Shown: positions 1-64,000, numbered from the stretch's first letter. The stretch is DNA of 64,000 nt from Patescibacteria group bacterium (GCA_041660565.1 JBAZWC010000002.1:20315-84314), one strand, 5' to 3'. Numbers and translations are program-made. Notes: generated from the letters alone by a model not told the origin.

Positions 1-810
1 GACCACTACCAAAAGCATTTTGATCGCTTAAATAACGCGTTAAATAAATACGCGTGGGACGGCCGATGGTATGTGCGTGCCACCTGTGATAACGGTCAAA
101 AAATCGGAAGCCATACCAATGAAGAAGGAATGATTCACCTAAACGGGCAAACGTGGCCAATTATGTCTGGAGTGGCAGATAAAATTCGAGGCGAAACCGC
201 CATGGATCAGGTATGGAAAAAACTAATGACTCCGTTTGGTCCGGCCATTTTTCTGCCGCCATTTACCGCCAAAAATGCCGATTTGGGAATTATTGCCCAA
301 TTTACCCCCGGCACCAAAGAGAATGGCACCATCTTTTTGCACCCGGCCGCTTGGTCGGTTATTGCCGAAAGCGTGCTTGGCCGTGGTGATAAAGCGTTTG
401 AAATATGGCGACGCTCTTCGTTCATCACCCGAAGCCAAGATCCTAAATATAAATCTGAGCCATACGTTTATCCCGAATACATGTACGGCCCGGCACACCC
501 TAAGTTTGGCCAAGGGTCATATACCTGGATTACCGGTTCCGCAGCCTGGTTTTACCGCGCCTGTACAGACTGGATTTTAGGCGTTCGTCCTACACTAGAG
601 GGATTGTTGATTCTGCCCGCAGTACCAAAATCATGGAAAAACTGGAATGTCACACGAGATTTTCGCGGCGCCAGATACGAAATTAGCTTCATAAAATCAA
701 AAAACCGCCATAAGCGGATTAAGATCTCTGTTGACGGAACGGAAATTGACGGAAATGTGGTACCAGACATGGCCGATGGTAAGACACATCAGGTAAAGGT
801 TGAGATATAA
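1..810 (+). CDS. C-terminal fragment of a glycoside phosphorylase/hydrolase-like protein (GH94/GH65-like alpha/alpha-toroid family); 5' end lies outside the window
   Basis: Frame 1 is open from nt 1. The C-terminal motifs (YVYPEYMYGP...GSYTWITGSAAWFYRA) are typical of cellobiose/chitobiose phosphorylase-type catalytic domains. It sits next to GT4 and glycosidase-like genes. Confidence 0.45.
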   Translation, partial: DHYQKHFDRLNNALNKYAWDGRWYVRATCDNGQKIGSHTNEEGMIHLNGQTWPIMSGVADKIRGETAMDQVWKKLMTPFGPAIFLPPFTAKNADLGIIAQFTPGTKENGTIFLHPAAWSVIAESVLGRGDKAFEIWRRSSFITRSQDPKYKSEPYVYPEYMYGPAHPKFGQGSYTWITGSAAWFYRACTDWILGVRPTLEGLLILPAVPKSWKNWNVTRDFRGARYEISFIKSKNRHKRIKISVDGTEIDGNVVPDMADGKTHQVKVEI

Positions 811-894
811 GCACTAAATTCGAAGCACGAAGCACGAAAAAAATCACAAATCCCAATTTTTAATTTTTAAACCTTTGAATTTTATATTTGATAT

Positions 895-1986
895 TTATTT
901 CGAATTTTTGTTTGGCATGGCCATCTCTAACGCTGCCAACAAATACATAATAGTAGATTCGGCACCACGGTTTTGATTCAAACTGTTACTATGCAGACCG
1001 TCAAAGCATGATCCAATTTTTGGGTCCGCAACCTCTAAACCAACCATATTTTTACCGCTAAACCAATCAAACCAAAGTCTGGCCGAGTTTAAGTATTTTT
1101 TATTTTTTGTGACGGAATAGGCTTGTTTCAAGGCCAATATAGTCAGAGCAACATCTATTGGTTGCTGGTCAAAAAATGCTCTCTCCCCATCTTTGACAAA
1201 CCAGCCGTTACTACCAATTGGTGCGGCCACTTTAATATCGTCAGCCAGTGCCATTTCAGTTTGAGATAGTATCCAGTCTAAAGATTTAATCCCCAGATCG
1301 ATCATTTTTTGATCATTAATCGCCTGTCCACCCCCTAGCAACGCCATCGGAATAAGTGCGTTTGAGTAGGCTAAAATATTTTCAAACCACGGCCAGTTAT
1401 TTGTTGAATATCGTTCAAACCCTTTTTCAAGATGAATCAATCCGTGCTTAATAATTTGTTTCCCCTGCTCAAAATCAGGATTTTTTCGCACATATGCTGA
1501 TAATCCGCACAAAGCATAGGCAATTGCCCGAGGAGCGTTTAGCTCTTTAATATGAACGCAGCTAGCCAGTAATAGTTCTTCAGCTAACTTTGCTTGCGAT
1601 TTATCCACCAAGTTTTCGCATGCCTCACCTAATCCCCAAATTGCGCGCCCAAACGAATCTTCAGAACCGATATCATCTACAAAATGTCGATCGTAACTAA
1701 CAAAGTTATGCATTTTGCCGTCTTCGCGTTGGCACAAATTAATATATCCTAAATAAATACTGCACAACGAGGTAAATTCTTTGTTTTTAGGCTCAATCTG
1801 CTGGCAGCGCGATGCAAAAATCAACGCTCGAGCGTTGTCGTCTAAACAGTACCCATAGCGCAAATCCGGTACATCATATCGAGCGTGTTGAACAATACCG
1901 GTTTGATCGGTCAATTTTTTCAGAAAATAGATTGACGGAATTTTAACTTGAGAAAACCGGTTTAATTTCATTTTACCTGTTCGCAA
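895..1986 (-). CDS. six-hairpin glycosidase-like hypothetical protein (GDE_C/GH63-like fold suspected)
   Basis: 363 aa ORF. It overlaps the upstream GT4 gene by 19 nt, suggesting an operon partner. Motifs GYCLDDNARAL and WGLGE are consistent with an alpha/alpha-toroid glycosidase, but this is weak. Confidence 0.4.
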   Translation of the reverse strand: MRTGKMKLNRFSQVKIPSIYFLKKLTDQTGIVQHARYDVPDLRYGYCLDDNARALIFASRCQQIEPKNKEFTSLCSIYLGYINLCQREDGKMHNFVSYDRHFVDDIGSEDSFGRAIWGLGEACENLVDKSQAKLAEELLLASCVHIKELNAPRAIAYALCGLSAYVRKNPDFEQGKQIIKHGLIHLEKGFERYSTNNWPWFENILAYSNALIPMALLGGGQAINDQKMIDLGIKSLDWILSQTEMALADDIKVAAPIGSNGWFVKDGERAFFDQQPIDVALTILALKQAYSVTKNKKYLNSARLWFDWFSGKNMVGLEVADPKIGSCFDGLHSNSLNQNRGAESTIMYLLAALEMAMPNKNSK

Positions 1987-62505: not shown

Positions 62506-62695
62506 CCGACGCCCCACTTTGAGCCGAGAAAATCACGGGGACACGATAGGCGGGTCAGGGCCAAGGGGTAGTTAAACACCCTCATCGACGCCCAAAACCA
62601 GCAGCACACCCAACTCGGCTCGGTCAATTACACTTCTATTGTATCCGATAATACCTATATTGTCAATAGCTCTACAATATTGGTAAAGTAATTAT

Positions 62696-63901
62696 TTATT
62701 CGTATCTTAGTGCCTTTAGCGGATTTAGACCGGCGGCACGTTTGGCAGGATAGAATCCGGTAACAGCGCCAACAACGGTCGAAAACAAAATAATTGCAAA
62801 AATAAACCACGGTGGACTGTAAAAAATGTTGGCTTGTTGCCCCCCGTAAACTCGGGCCAAGACGTTTAATATCGAGTTAGCTCCAAACGTCAGCAATAAC
62901 CCTAACAAAACCCCCGCCAATCCACCACAAAATCCGATAATCGATGACTCTGCGATAAACATCTTCCAAATATCACTTTTGTCTGCACCTAAGGCTTTCA
63001 TAATACCAATCTCTTTGGTGCGCTCTAAAAGCGATACTGTCATGGTGTTAAACATTCCAATCGATGAAATAATTAGAGCAATTAACCCCAAAGTGGCTAA
63101 CGTGGCTTGAACCACAGCAAAAACCTGATTAAGCTGCTCCAATGTTTCCAGCGGCGCAGACGCAACATATCCCAAACCGCCAATCGCGTCCTTTACCCCA
63201 ATTACGTTATTACGATCACTCGCTTGCGCTTTTAAGTTAGCGTATGGCACGGTTTTAACCAGCGCTTTCGCGTCTGTCATAGTAACATAGACAAACGAGG
63301 AAAAGTCGGGGTCTTTAATGATGCCGGCAACTGTATATTTTTTATCGTCTGGAAAATCCTGCGTTTTGGCGGTTGGTTGATTCGGATCGACAATGCTATA
63401 AGATAAGGTAAATGTTTTTCCAAGAGAAGCTTGATCTACCGGAAGGTTAAATTGTGACAAAAATGCGTCAGAAACTACCGCCTGATGGTCCGATTTATCA
63501 CCTAACACATTGCCAAAATCGGCTCGGATGTCTCCAAGGGTAAAATAAGTTGGCGAAACTGCGTGCACAACCGTAGTGCCAAGGCTAGTTAAATTAATTT
63601 TAGCCTCTAAATCCATTTCGCTGGCTACTTCTACCACATTTGGTAACGCTTTGATTTTTGTAACCGCGTCATCATCTAACTTAATGATAGACGAGGATGA
63701 CGACGTTGTGACATCAACAGTGGAAATGGTGGCAGAATTGGCGATCTGTTGTACGGTTAAGATCTGTAAACCATAACCAAATGAAACCAGAAACAAAATT
63801 GCCGAAGTCGCAACCGACACCGCCAGAATGGTTAAAAACGTACGCAATCGGTTGGTACGAAAGTTTCGTGTGGCTAACCTAAATACGTCAATTAAGCGCA
63901 T
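62696..63901 (-). CDS. FtsX/MacB-like ABC transporter permease
   Basis: N-terminal TM helix, a ~230 aa extracytoplasmic domain, and a C-terminal 3-TM FtsX bundle. Confidence 0.75.
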   Translation of the reverse strand: MRLIDVFRLATRNFRTNRLRTFLTILAVSVATSAILFLVSFGYGLQILTVQQIANSATISTVDVTTSSSSSIIKLDDDAVTKIKALPNVVEVASEMDLEAKINLTSLGTTVVHAVSPTYFTLGDIRADFGNVLGDKSDHQAVVSDAFLSQFNLPVDQASLGKTFTLSYSIVDPNQPTAKTQDFPDDKKYTVAGIIKDPDFSSFVYVTMTDAKALVKTVPYANLKAQASDRNNVIGVKDAIGGLGYVASAPLETLEQLNQVFAVVQATLATLGLIALIISSIGMFNTMTVSLLERTKEIGIMKALGADKSDIWKMFIAESSIIGFCGGLAGVLLGLLLTFGANSILNVLARVYGGQQANIFYSPPWFIFAIILFSTVVGAVTGFYPAKRAAGLNPLKALRYE

Positions 63902-64000
63902 TATTGATCTTTCTTGTCTTCGTCTTCTTTAATAGATGATAGTGCGGCGGTGCGCAATAGTTGTTCTTCACTCTCGGCTGGGATTAAAGTATCGTCTGCG
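63902..64000 (-). CDS. 3' end of an upstream gene (probably the cognate ABC ATPase), partial
   Basis: Open frame reading ...SEEQLLRTAALSSIKEDEDKKDQ* with its stop at 63902-63904. The 5' part lies outside the window. Confidence 0.3.

What the first reader, a model, noticed from the sequence alone, without database searches (positions are those of the whole stretch)
1..64000. Seven compositional islets (high GC, strong SD, GC-hairpin terminators) scattered in an AT-richer housekeeping backbone: possible uptake of host or phage DNA
Seven segments are markedly GC-richer than the backbone: about 4160-5290, 13290-13600, 16960-18130, 31790-32040, 38525-38790, 43600-44530 and 56850-57760. All carry short ORFs with canonical GGAGG/AAGGA RBS and are bounded by stable GC hairpins. 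Several sit inside otherwise conserved gene strings (yebC|ruvC, dnaJ|def, trmD|uvrB). If the organism is an obligate epibiont of high-GC Actinobacteria, as Saccharibacteria are, these look like small host-derived acquisitions. This is consistent with the natural-competence machinery (comEC) encoded in the same window.
Basis: inference. Interest (0 to 1): 0.6.

Follow-up and report, generated by a model that had tools for sequence, protein, structure and literature searches.

The report
GC-rich mini gene cassettes in Patescibacteria
Seven short GC-rich stretches in this small-genome bacterium are real, self-contained mini-genes (own promoter, ribosome-binding site and terminator) for unknown small proteins.

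Summary
All seven islets are GC-rich (53-62% against a 42.6% backbone). All 13 ORFs I defined in them have GC3 3.9 to 9.4 SD above 52 backbone genes, through both amino-acid content and synonymous codon choice. Each islet is an autonomous unit: a sigma-70-like promoter, usually a strong Shine-Dalgarno site, 1-3 small ORFs and an intrinsic terminator. The units sit in junctions between housekeeping genes. An independent assembly reproduces islets 1, 6 and 7 with both flanks, so they are not chimeras.

The donor interpretation is not supported. No islet protein matches Pfam, PHROGs, PADLOC, 50,697 phage records, 72,556 plasmids or IMG/VR. An exhaustive HMMER search for the largest protein (I3b) found only seven relatives, and every one whose context I could read lies in related Patescibacteria next to trmD or rplS.

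The trmD|uvrB junction in related genera holds a very divergent version of the same two-gene module, an unrelated GC-rich ORF, or nothing. Islet 3 is therefore an old variable site, not a recent capture.

Best reading: these are moron-like cassettes from a gene pool of about 56% GC, exchanged at conserved junctions much like Neisseria minimal mobile elements. Function and donor remain unknown, and no close relatives exist to test the other six islets.

The parts
4138..5280 (.). Islet 1, GC 0.57, between yebC (3284-4021 +) and ruvC (5482-6009 +)
   Evidence: HMM segmentation; Pfam on the flanks; reproduced in Logan contig L005
4881..5282 (-). I1c, 133 aa, SD AAGGA; first gene of a coupled pair (TAGcATG junction with I1b)
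   Evidence: Found only itself in the word-based search of 5.8 billion clusters. AF2 model unusable, pLDDT 41
4547..4879 (-). I1b, 110 aa, paralog of I1c (41% identity over 78 aa, E=2e-16)
4181..4408 (-). I1a, 75 aa, with its own AT-rich promoter region (4430-4495) and SD GGAG
4130..4168 (-). Intrinsic terminator of I1a; near-identical 39-nt copy at 4497-4535
   Evidence: Sequence; dG -21, z -4.25
4497..4535 (-). Intrinsic terminator of I1c-I1b (duplicate of 4130-4168)
   Evidence: Sequence; dG -20.9, z -4.2
5337..5365 (-). Putative promoter of I1c-I1b, TTGACA-17-CAATAT
   Evidence: Read by eye; below the threshold of the scan tool
13118..13596 (.). Islet 2, GC 0.57, between dnaJ (12668-13279 +) and def-fmt (13765-15150 +); the segment also covers the 3' end of dnaJ
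13324..13533 (-). I2, 69-aa ORF. The N-terminal half looks ribbon-helix-helix-like by eye. The SD is weak and no public gene call exists, so this is the least certain gene
   Evidence: (not in the collection). Terminator at 13285-13322, dG -17.9
16969..18047 (.). Islet 3, GC 0.57, between trmD (16107-16796 +) and uvrB (18155-20167 +)
17743..17952 (-). I3a, 69 aa, GC3 0.79, SD AAGGAG; N-terminal SHOCT-like motif (read by eye)
16966..17661 (-). I3b, 231 aa. Belongs to a very small family: 7 relatives among 1.84 billion representatives. Invariant in my 10-sequence alignment are T5, C87, H121, H125 and W223. The AF2 model is confident and shows an alpha/beta sandwich
18057..18085 (-). Islet 3 promoter, TTGACA-17-TACAAT with an upstream TG; best hit in window 1-20000
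16943..16971 (-). Islet 3 terminator, 13-bp stem plus T9; best hit in window 1-20000
   Evidence: dG -20.6, z -5.4
31830..32012 (+). Islet 4: I4, 60 aa, GTG start, SD AGGAGG, acidic (net charge -7). Lies between an EPSP-synthase-family gene (30260-31606 -) and 32340-33080 (-)
31998..32026 (+). Islet 4 terminator
   Evidence: top-ranked; dG -19.9
38532..38732 (+). Islet 5: I5, 66 aa, SD AAGGAGG. Lies between pepA (36972-38444 +) and a DsbA-like gene (38828-39487 -)
38747..38773 (+). Islet 5 terminator
   Evidence: dG -21.4, z -5.3
43607..44495 (.). Islet 6, GC 0.56, between a DUF2207 gene (41703-43460 +) and a 293-aa gene (44610-45491 -)
   Evidence: reproduced in Logan contig L025
44202..44456 (-). 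I6a, 84 aa, hydrophobic mini-protein, SD AAGGAGG
43908..44162 (-). I6b, 84 aa, weak paralog of I6c (25% identity, E=3e-5) and of I6a
43648..43905 (-). I6c, 85 aa, third paralogous hydrophobic mini-protein
44498..44526 (-). Islet 6 promoter, GTGACA-17-TATATT; best hit in window 30000-46000
43595..43645 (-). Islet 6 terminator plus T-run
   Evidence: dG -20.5, z -3.4
56854..57710 (.). Islet 7, GC 0.62, between a cupin gene (56406-56801 +) and a 335-aa gene (57860-58867 -)
   Evidence: reproduced in Logan contig L006
57443..57682 (-). I7a, 79 aa, SD AGGAG
56891..57370 (-). I7b, 159 aa, GC3 0.77, SD AAGGA, Lys-rich tail
57787..57815 (-). Islet 7 promoter, TTGACA-17-TATACT with TG (11 of 12 matches)
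56853..56880 (-). Islet 7 terminator, 12-bp stem with 9 GC pairs; best hit in window 46000-64000
   Evidence: dG -27.6
7179..8660 (-). comEC (DNA-uptake channel). Context for an uptake-and-recombination route; not part of any islet
   Evidence: Pfam Competence, E=8e-43

Best explanation
The seven islets are correctly assembled, transcriptionally autonomous accessory gene cassettes. Each has its own sigma-70-type promoter, usually a strong Shine-Dalgarno site, one to three small ORFs and its own intrinsic terminator. They sit in junctions between housekeeping genes of a 43% GC Patescibacteria genome. Anatomically they match what phage biologists call morons, but they lie in a cellular chromosome.

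They encode lineage-restricted, fast-evolving small proteins of unknown function:
- a 231-aa alpha/beta protein with invariant Cys and two His, which I infer to be a metal-binding site, plus a small partner;
- a tandem pair of paralogs plus a third ORF;
- three paralogous hydrophobic mini-proteins;
- a 79-aa plus 159-aa pair;
- three single mini-ORFs.

Their codon usage is that of a gene pool of about 56-57% GC, so they do not share the backbone's mutational history. The most likely source is a pool of accessory genes circulating among related Patescibacteria or their unsampled mobile elements, not an actinobacterial host or a known phage.

Inferred step: the cassettes are installed and swapped by homologous recombination of the conserved flanks after DNA uptake through ComEC, as in Neisseria minimal mobile elements. 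No integrase, transposase, target-site duplication or terminal repeat is present.

Shown: the anatomy, the composition, assembly continuity for three islets, and the clade-restricted, site-conserved but variable occupancy of the trmD|uvrB junction. Inferred: horizontal circulation, the mechanism of exchange, and extension from islet 3 to the other six.
For: Composition. GC3 z-scores run from +3.9 to +9.4 for all 13 ORFs. Synonymous usage is shifted (Leu CTC+CTG 55% against 16%), and Gly+Ala+Arg+Pro make up 31% against 23%. Pooled GC1 and GC3 both imply a source of about 56-57% GC.

Autonomy. The top-scoring promoter-like site belongs to an islet in two of the three scanned stretches (islets 3 and 6) and ties for top with the tRNA-Ser promoter in the third (islet 7). 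The top-scoring terminator-like site belongs to an islet in all three. Terminators fold at -18 to -28 kcal/mol. SD cores of at least 5 nt occur in 9/13 islet ORFs against 15/51 backbone genes, P=0.012.

Real proteins. I3b has a family with invariant residues and a confident model (pLDDT 81, pTM 0.84). I1b/I1c and I6a-c are paralog sets.

Not chimeric. Independent Logan contigs carry islets 1, 6 and 7 with both flanks.

Variable conserved junction. The content of trmD|uvrB in relatives is:
- I3-type module in L015, L017 and L020 (26-39% identity to I3b by local alignment);
- an unrelated GC-rich 119-aa ORF in L018;
- nothing in L022, where trmD overlaps uvrB by 4 nt.
I3b-like genes also sit next to trmD in L021 and L024, and next to rplS in L019 and L023. 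TrmD is 61-75% identical among these genomes, while I3b-like proteins are only 20-43% identical. The window's nearest TrmD relatives carry the most divergent copy (L021, 21%) or none (L022).

I3b-like GC3 stays at 0.48-0.68 whatever the host backbone GC3 (0.35-0.55).

No mobility genes were found among 40 backbone proteins scanned. No flanking repeats longer than 9 nt exist. Published work reports that most detected gene transfers in Patescibacteria are within the phylum and links them to competence (PMC12455944).
Against: No donor sequence has been found for any islet, so horizontal origin rests on composition and on one junction.

Only islet 3 could be compared across genomes. Even DnaK and UvrB of this organism have no relative at 90% identity or above in the collection.

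The consistent trmD/rplS linkage of I3b-like genes over deep divergence fits plain vertical inheritance with fast evolution at least as well as repeated exchange. At 20-40% identity the tree incongruence is only suggestive.

In four relatives the I3b-like gene is barely GC-richer than its backbone.

Foreign DNA in bacteria is usually AT-richer than the host, not GC-richer.

I2 may not be a gene.

The word-based homology searches used for I1c are insensitive: the same method missed true I3b relatives.
Confidence: 0.5

Rival explanations
1. The cassettes are vertically inherited, clade-specific genes. Their high GC is intrinsic and is maintained by selection (for example on mRNA structure or codon choice) or by GC-biased gene conversion at recombination-prone junctions, not by import.
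For: I3b-like genes are linked to trmD or rplS in all eight genomes whose context could be read. Presence in most and absence in one (L022) is most simply explained by an ancestral gene and a single loss. Small ORFs without Pfam hits between housekeeping genes are mildly GC-rich in the relatives too. Islet mRNAs fold slightly better than shuffled sequence (mean z -1.4 against -0.1 for backbone controls).
Against: A GC3 excess of +0.17 to +0.35, with changed synonymous usage, is far larger than gene conversion or expression effects are generally reported to give (recalled, not tested here). Ribosomal and other core genes here are not GC3-rich. L018 carries an unrelated cassette at the same junction. 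Larger lineage-specific genes without Pfam hits in the window (895-1986, 44610-45491, 57860-58867) are not GC-rich.
Confidence: 0.28
2. One reading: the islets are pieces of DNA captured from a high-GC actinobacterial host or from its phages.
For: The islets are GC-richer than the backbone and comEC is present. A relative (L018) carries a GC-rich pyrF pair that looks like a bacterial import.
Against: There are no matches in 50,697 phage records, 72,556 plasmids or IMG/VR. The exhaustive HMMER search for I3b finds only a very small Patescibacteria-linked family. Host chromosomal DNA would mostly carry recognisable domains, yet none of the 13 ORFs has one. The implied source GC of about 56% and GC3 of 0.65 are well below typical Actinomyces or Schaalia values (the typical values are recalled, not measured here). 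Neither the organism's host nor a Saccharibacteria identity is established.
Confidence: 0.08
3. The islets are remnants or morons of phages that infect Patescibacteria themselves, left behind after prophage decay.
For: The anatomy matches the moron definition of own promoter, own terminator and deviant GC (PMC3594210). The proteins are small ORFans, as is typical of phage accessory genes.
Against: No phage structural, integrase or repressor gene was found among the 40 backbone proteins scanned by Pfam. There are no PHROG hits and no matches in IMG/VR or INPHARED. Seven separate insertions sit in seven housekeeping junctions, not in one prophage scar. Phages usually match or fall below host GC.
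Confidence: 0.12
4. The islets are an assembly or binning artefact (chimeric insertions), or GC-rich non-coding RNA whose ORFs are spurious.
For: GC-rich DNA in an AT-rich genome throws up ORFs in many frames. Only a single MAG is available.
Against: An independent assembly reproduces three islets with both flanks at 99.99-100% identity. All seven lie exactly in intergenic junctions and disrupt no gene. There are no Rfam hits even at E up to 1, and folding z-scores are only mild. SD-start-terminator architecture, paralog families and a conserved, confidently folding protein family argue for coding sequence.
Confidence: 0.04

Closest known systems
Phage morons (as defined for HK97/HK022; PMC3594210)
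   Same: One or a few genes form an independent transcription unit with their own promoter and factor-independent terminator. The unit is inserted between two resident genes, and its GC content differs from its neighbours.
   Different: These units sit in a cellular housekeeping chromosome with no phage genes nearby. They are GC-richer, not merely different. No phage carrying them is known.
Neisseria minimal mobile elements (MMEs; PMC3898611)
   Same: The site lies between two conserved genes and holds different whole-gene cassettes, or none, in different genomes. No integrase or transposase is present. The host has DNA-uptake machinery. Intergenic hairpin repeats lie nearby, and two copies even fit the dRS3 pattern ATTCCC(N8)GGGAAT.
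   Different: Variation is shown here only between genera and at one junction (trmD|uvrB), not between strains. Exchange by homologous recombination is inferred, not shown. The cassettes are ORFans.
Compositional genomic islands and individually transferred genes in Patescibacteria (PMC12455944)
   Same: Compositionally deviant DNA in genomes of the candidate phyla radiation (CPR, the group that includes Patescibacteria), mostly of intra-phylum origin, associated with competence genes.
   Different: These units are 0.2-1.2 kb micro-islets of one to three mini-genes, below the size usual island predictors report, and they have complete expression signals of their own.
Integron gene cassettes
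   Same: Small, mostly unknown-function ORFs with a hairpin-forming sequence at the 3' end.
   Different: There is no integrase and no array. Each cassette has its own promoter. The 3' hairpins are terminators with U-runs, not attC sites. The cassettes are scattered, not clustered.

Membership tests
Phage moron | Own promoter upstream of the inserted gene(s) | tested here: met
   Sigma-70-like sites at 18085-18057, 44526-44498 and 57815-57787 rank top or joint top in their scans. The promoters of the other islets were read by eye only.
Phage moron | Own factor-independent terminator downstream | tested here: met
   Eight hairpins of -18 to -28 kcal/mol, each followed by a U-run. They are the top-ranked terminator-like sites.
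Phage moron | [quoted passage not shown] | tested here: met
   GC3 z-scores of +3.9 to +9.4.
Phage moron | Located in a phage or prophage genome | tested here: not met
   40 backbone proteins are housekeeping genes or have no Pfam hit; none matches a phage family. There are no PHROG, INPHARED or IMG/VR matches.
Minimal mobile element (MME) | Region between two conserved genes | tested here: met
   trmD and uvrB are adjacent in L015, L017, L018, L020 and L022. The yebC-ruvC pairing is conserved generally (established knowledge, not tested in relatives).
Minimal mobile element (MME) | Different whole-gene cassettes in different strains | tested here: inconclusive
   At genus level the junction holds an I3-type module, an unrelated 119-aa ORF, or nothing. 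No strain-level relatives exist in the collections. The other six junctions could not be tested.
Minimal mobile element (MME) | Incorporated solely by homologous recombination (no dedicated mobility functions) | tested here: inconclusive
   No integrase or transposase was found, and there are no flanking direct or inverted repeats longer than 9 nt. comEC and ruvC are present. Recombination itself was not observed.
Host-derived (Actinobacteria) horizontal acquisition | Closest homologs in the donor lineage | tested here: not met
   The exhaustive HMMER search for I3b found seven relatives, and those with readable context are in Patescibacteria-type settings. Word-based searches for I3b and I1c found only themselves. 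Plasmid tblastn was negative. The other ORFs were not searched exhaustively.
Host-derived (Actinobacteria) horizontal acquisition | Composition like the donor (GC above 60%, GC3 above 0.8) | tested here: not met
   Pooled GC is 0.574 and GC3 is 0.645. The donor values are recalled from general knowledge.
Integron cassette | IntI integrase, attI/attC sites and a promoterless cassette array | tested here: not met
   No integrase is present. Each cassette has its own promoter, and the cassettes are scattered.
Canonical genomic island | More than 10 kb, next to a tRNA, with integrase and flanking direct repeats | tested here: not met
   The islets are 0.2-1.2 kb. The only tRNA (62327-62416) is not adjacent to any islet. 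No flanking repeats were found.
Toxin-antitoxin or known defence system | Match to known toxin, antitoxin or defence protein families | tested here: not met
   No Pfam or PADLOC hit. The two-gene small-plus-large layout of islets 3 and 7 is a resemblance only.

The most novel reading that the evidence does not exclude
This little-sampled Patescibacteria clade may maintain a set of hot-spot junctions between core genes (trmD|uvrB, der|priA, yebC|ruvC and others). Promoter-to-terminator micro-cassettes from a shared gene pool of about 56% GC would be continually swapped at these junctions by transformation and flank recombination. That would be an MME-like system in CPR bacteria, and its cargo would include new protein families, such as the Cys/His/His I3b family with its small partner, that evolve under diversifying pressure (for example host-interaction or immunity functions).
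Probability: 0.25. Interest if true: 0.6.

Novelty: new member of a known kind. Interest (0 to 1): 0.35.

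Why it matters
If the cassette-exchange reading is right, it shows how ultra-small, gene-poor symbionts still refresh a small accessory repertoire without integrases or transposons. It also flags a set of unstudied small proteins with strong expression signals as candidates for host-interaction or defence roles.

It is also a caution. In this lineage, compositional 'foreignness' can persist at a site that has been occupied since before related genera split. 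GC islets alone therefore do not date or source a transfer.

Tried and rejected
- Rfam at gathering threshold and at E up to 1: only tRNA-Ser.
- Pfam, PHROGs and PADLOC on islet proteins: nothing. Pfam on all I3b family members gave only a sub-threshold DUF6139 hit.
- PDB sequence searches for I2, I5, I7b, I1c and the I3b profile: nothing significant.
- tblastn of all 13 proteins against phage and plasmid collections: no match.
- IMG/VR scans for I7b, I1c and I3b: none. The I3b alignment was too divergent to scan.
- Scans of species-representative genomes and of JGI metagenomes with Def-Fmt returned only relatives at 30-47% identity with no shared synteny.
- Word-based homology searches for I3b and I1c found only themselves. 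That method missed true I3b relatives, so its negatives are weak (against 47).
- AF2 of I1c with its paralog: pLDDT 41, unusable.
- Search for target-site duplications or terminal repeats at islet borders: only chance 8-9-mers.
- The REP-like hairpin as a cassette attachment site: rejected. It lies upstream of some cassettes, downstream of others, and also at four junctions with no islet.

Full report
**Observation**

The window is 43.7% GC. A two-state GC HMM picks out five segments: 4138-5280, 13118-13596, 16969-18047, 43607-44495 and 56854-57710. The two remaining islets are single mini-genes (31830-32012 and 38532-38732), too short for that model but still clear outliers.

I re-derived the ORFs from the sequence and defined 13:
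- Islet 1: I1a, I1b, I1c
- Islet 2: I2
- Islet 3: I3a, I3b
- Islet 4: I4
- Islet 5: I5
- Islet 6: I6a, I6b, I6c
- Islet 7: I7a, I7b

All 13 have GC3 of 0.58-0.79. The 52 backbone genes have mean GC3 0.424 (SD 0.039, maximum 0.498), so the islet z-scores run from +3.9 to +9.4. Recoding the same proteins with backbone codon frequencies would give GC3 of only 0.42-0.52. The excess is therefore synonymous (Leu CTC+CTG 55% against 16%) as well as in amino-acid content (Gly+Ala+Arg+Pro 31% against 23%).

**Anatomy**

Each islet is a complete expression unit.
- The top-scoring promoter-like site belongs to an islet in two of my three scans. These are islet 3 (TTGACA-17-TACAAT with TG) and islet 6 (GTGACA-17-TATATT). 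In the third scan islet 7 (TTGACA-17-TATACT with TG) ties for top with a site that I read as the tRNA-Ser promoter.
- The top-scoring terminator-like site in every scan belongs to an islet.
- Eight 3' hairpins fold at -18 to -28 kcal/mol (z -3.3 to -5.4) and are followed by U-runs.
- SD cores of at least 5 nt precede 9 of 13 islet ORFs but only 15 of 51 backbone genes (Fisher P=0.012).

The hairpins are terminators at one end, and the other end is an AT-rich promoter.

Four islets (1-4) are antisense insertions between co-oriented genes. The other three sit at convergent junctions.

None of the 40 backbone proteins I scanned is an integrase, transposase or phage protein. The islet borders carry no direct or inverted repeats beyond chance 8-9-mers.

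**Assembly**

The sequence comes from a 374-kb contig of a MAG labelled 'Patescibacteria group bacterium'. Logan contigs assembled independently from run SRR18595301 match window 1-6037 at 100% and window 54259-62355 at 99.99%. A third contig carries islet 6 with both flanks and the same three ORF calls. Seven chimeric insertions that each land exactly in an intergenic junction would in any case be implausible.

**Are the ORFs real genes?**

- I3b has a small but real family with invariant T5, C87, H121, H125 and W223. Its AlphaFold model is confident (pLDDT 81, pTM 0.84): an alpha/beta sandwich with both His on one helix.
- I1b and I1c are paralogs (41% identity, E=2e-16) joined by a TAGcATG overlap.
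- I6a-c are three weakly related hydrophobic mini-proteins.
- The remaining ORFs rest on their SD-start-terminator architecture. I2 is the least certain: weak SD and no public gene call.
- Rfam finds nothing in the islets. The coding parts fold only slightly better than shuffled sequence (mean z -1.4 against -0.1 for backbone controls).

**Donor search**

No islet protein hits Pfam, PHROGs or PADLOC. A tblastn of all 13 proteins against 50,697 phage records and 72,556 plasmids found nothing at E up to 0.01. IMG/VR scans were empty. Word-based searches of 5.8 billion protein clusters returned only the query itself for I3b and I1c.

The exhaustive HMMER search of 1.84 billion representatives shows those negatives are weak. 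It found seven true I3b relatives at E from 5e-37 to 3e-5.

As a calibration, even DnaK, UvrB, RuvC, S16 and PepA of this organism are singletons at 90% identity. The lineage has no close sampled relatives, so 'ORFan at 90%' carries no information.

**Relatives**

Def-Fmt homologs at 49-59% identity gave access to related genomes. The def-fmt/rpsP/KH/trmD string is conserved in them, and the junction after trmD varies:

| Genome | Content after trmD | Identity to I3b (local alignment) |
|---|---|---|
| L017 | 246-aa + 67-aa genes on the opposite strand, then uvrB | 39% |
| L015 | 245-aa + 67-aa genes on the opposite strand, then uvrB | 26% |
| L020 | 237-aa + 66-aa + 58-aa genes on the opposite strand, then uvrB | 26% |
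| L018 | unrelated GC-rich 119-aa ORF, then uvrB | none |
| L022 | nothing; trmD overlaps uvrB by 4 nt | absent |

This is the same layout as islet 3 in L015, L017 and L020. Further I3b-like genes lie next to trmD in L021 and L024, and next to rplS in L019 and L023.

TrmD is 61-75% identical among these genomes, while I3b-like proteins are only 20-43% identical. By TrmD the window's nearest relatives are L021 and L022, which carry the most divergent copy (21%) and none, respectively.

I3b-like GC3 stays at 0.48-0.68 whatever the host backbone GC3 (0.35-0.55). The gene is a strong outlier in the AT-richer genomes (window, L021, L024) and close to background in the others.

Other junctions in the relatives behave similarly. 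The der|priA junction holds zero to four unrelated, mildly GC-rich ORFs without Pfam hits.

**Interpretation**

Islet 3 is not a recent capture of host or phage DNA. It is an old, clade-restricted, very fast-evolving two-gene module at a conserved junction whose occupancy differs among genera.

For the islets as a class, the anatomy matches the published definition of a moron: own promoter, own terminator and deviant GC (PMC3594210). They are, however, not in a phage. The junction behaviour matches the definition of a Neisseria minimal mobile element: different whole-gene cassettes between two conserved genes, incorporated by homologous recombination (PMC3898611). Variation here is shown only between genera and at one junction.

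Pooled GC1 (0.614) and GC3 (0.645) both point to a source of about 56-57% GC with no sign of amelioration. This uses the Lawrence-Ochman regressions, whose coefficients I recalled from memory. That value is well below what Actinomyces or Schaalia DNA would show.

My best explanation (confidence about 0.5) is that these are autonomous accessory cassettes drawn from a gene pool circulating among related Patescibacteria or their unsampled mobile elements. They would be installed by flank recombination after ComEC-dependent uptake. This agrees with the report that most detectable transfers in Patescibacteria are within the phylum (PMC12455944).

The main rival (about 0.28) is plain vertical inheritance with an unexplained local force that favours GC. 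Host-derived DNA (about 0.08), decayed Patescibacteria prophage (about 0.12) and artefact or non-coding RNA (about 0.04) are less likely.

**Function**

**Limits**

Six of the seven islets could not be compared with any relative. The taxonomic placement below Patescibacteria, and therefore any host, is unknown. The homologous-recombination step is inferred.

**Verdict**

The finding is a modestly interesting new example of a known kind of accessory cassette. One real puzzle remains: accessory DNA that is GC-richer than its host, and stays so at a site occupied since before related genera diverged.

Noticed in passing
window 13599-13630, 30202-30230, 31730-31762, 35525-35556, 38788-38816, 43562-43595, 50022-50055, 54176-54184, 56812-56840: A REP-like intergenic hairpin family, TATAGATTCCGGA-N5-TCCGGAATGACA. 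The core GGAATGACA has 9 copies against 0.5 expected. Two copies (31739-31758 and 50026-50045) fit the Neisseria dRS3 pattern ATTCCC(N8)GGGAAT exactly. Five of the nine copies abut islets (hypergeometric P about 9e-4), but on either side of the cassette. Most copies lie 3' of a co-oriented gene. The copies at 13599 and 50022 share an upstream (GAAATTT)n tract. The family was not found in relatives' loci or in IMG/VR.
   Followed up: partly
window 4023-4116: A 95-nt near-perfect hairpin lies immediately after the yebC stop codon. It is built of TTAGGG/CCCTAA-like units (dG -56.9 kcal/mol, z -6.4) and is much longer than a terminator needs to be.
   Followed up: partly
window 4130-4168 and 4497-4535: The same 39-nt terminator sequence occurs twice within islet 1, after I1a and after I1b. 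This suggests a module duplication inside the islet.
   Followed up: no
window 16966-17661; loci L015, L017, L019, L020, L021, L023, L024: I3b defines a very small new protein family: 7 relatives among 1.84 billion representatives. Where context could be read, the gene is always next to trmD or rplS. It has invariant Cys and two His (HxxxH) and a confident alpha/beta model. In most of these loci it is paired with a 66-82-aa ORF that carries a SHOCT-like motif by eye, NGxI(S/T)xxE.
   Followed up: partly
window 13765-15150: Peptide deformylase and methionyl-tRNA formyltransferase are fused into one 461-aa gene. The same three-domain architecture is shared by thousands of hits, mostly unnamed metagenomic proteins.
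   Followed up: no
L018 2794-4430: A related genome carries a pyrF (OMP decarboxylase) gene and an adjacent 212-aa gene with GC3 of 0.68 against about 0.45 for its backbone. This looks like a GC-rich import of metabolic genes in the same clade.
   Followed up: no
L015 2250-3880, L017 4044-5049, L020 4762-4968; empty in L018 and L022: The der|priA junction in relatives is a second variable site. It holds zero to four mutually unrelated, mildly GC-rich small ORFs.
   Followed up: partly
window 32340-33080: The gene next to islet 4 has a sub-threshold match to ART-PolyVal, an ADP-ribosyltransferase domain of polyvalent proteins (E=2.5e-6, 28.7 bits against a cutoff of 31.2). This hints at a toxin-like accessory gene with ordinary backbone composition.
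   Followed up: no
window 13705-13765: A CT-rich repeated tract (ccatcctccattctctatcctctatcctcc) lies just upstream of def-fmt. Its purpose is unknown.
   Followed up: no
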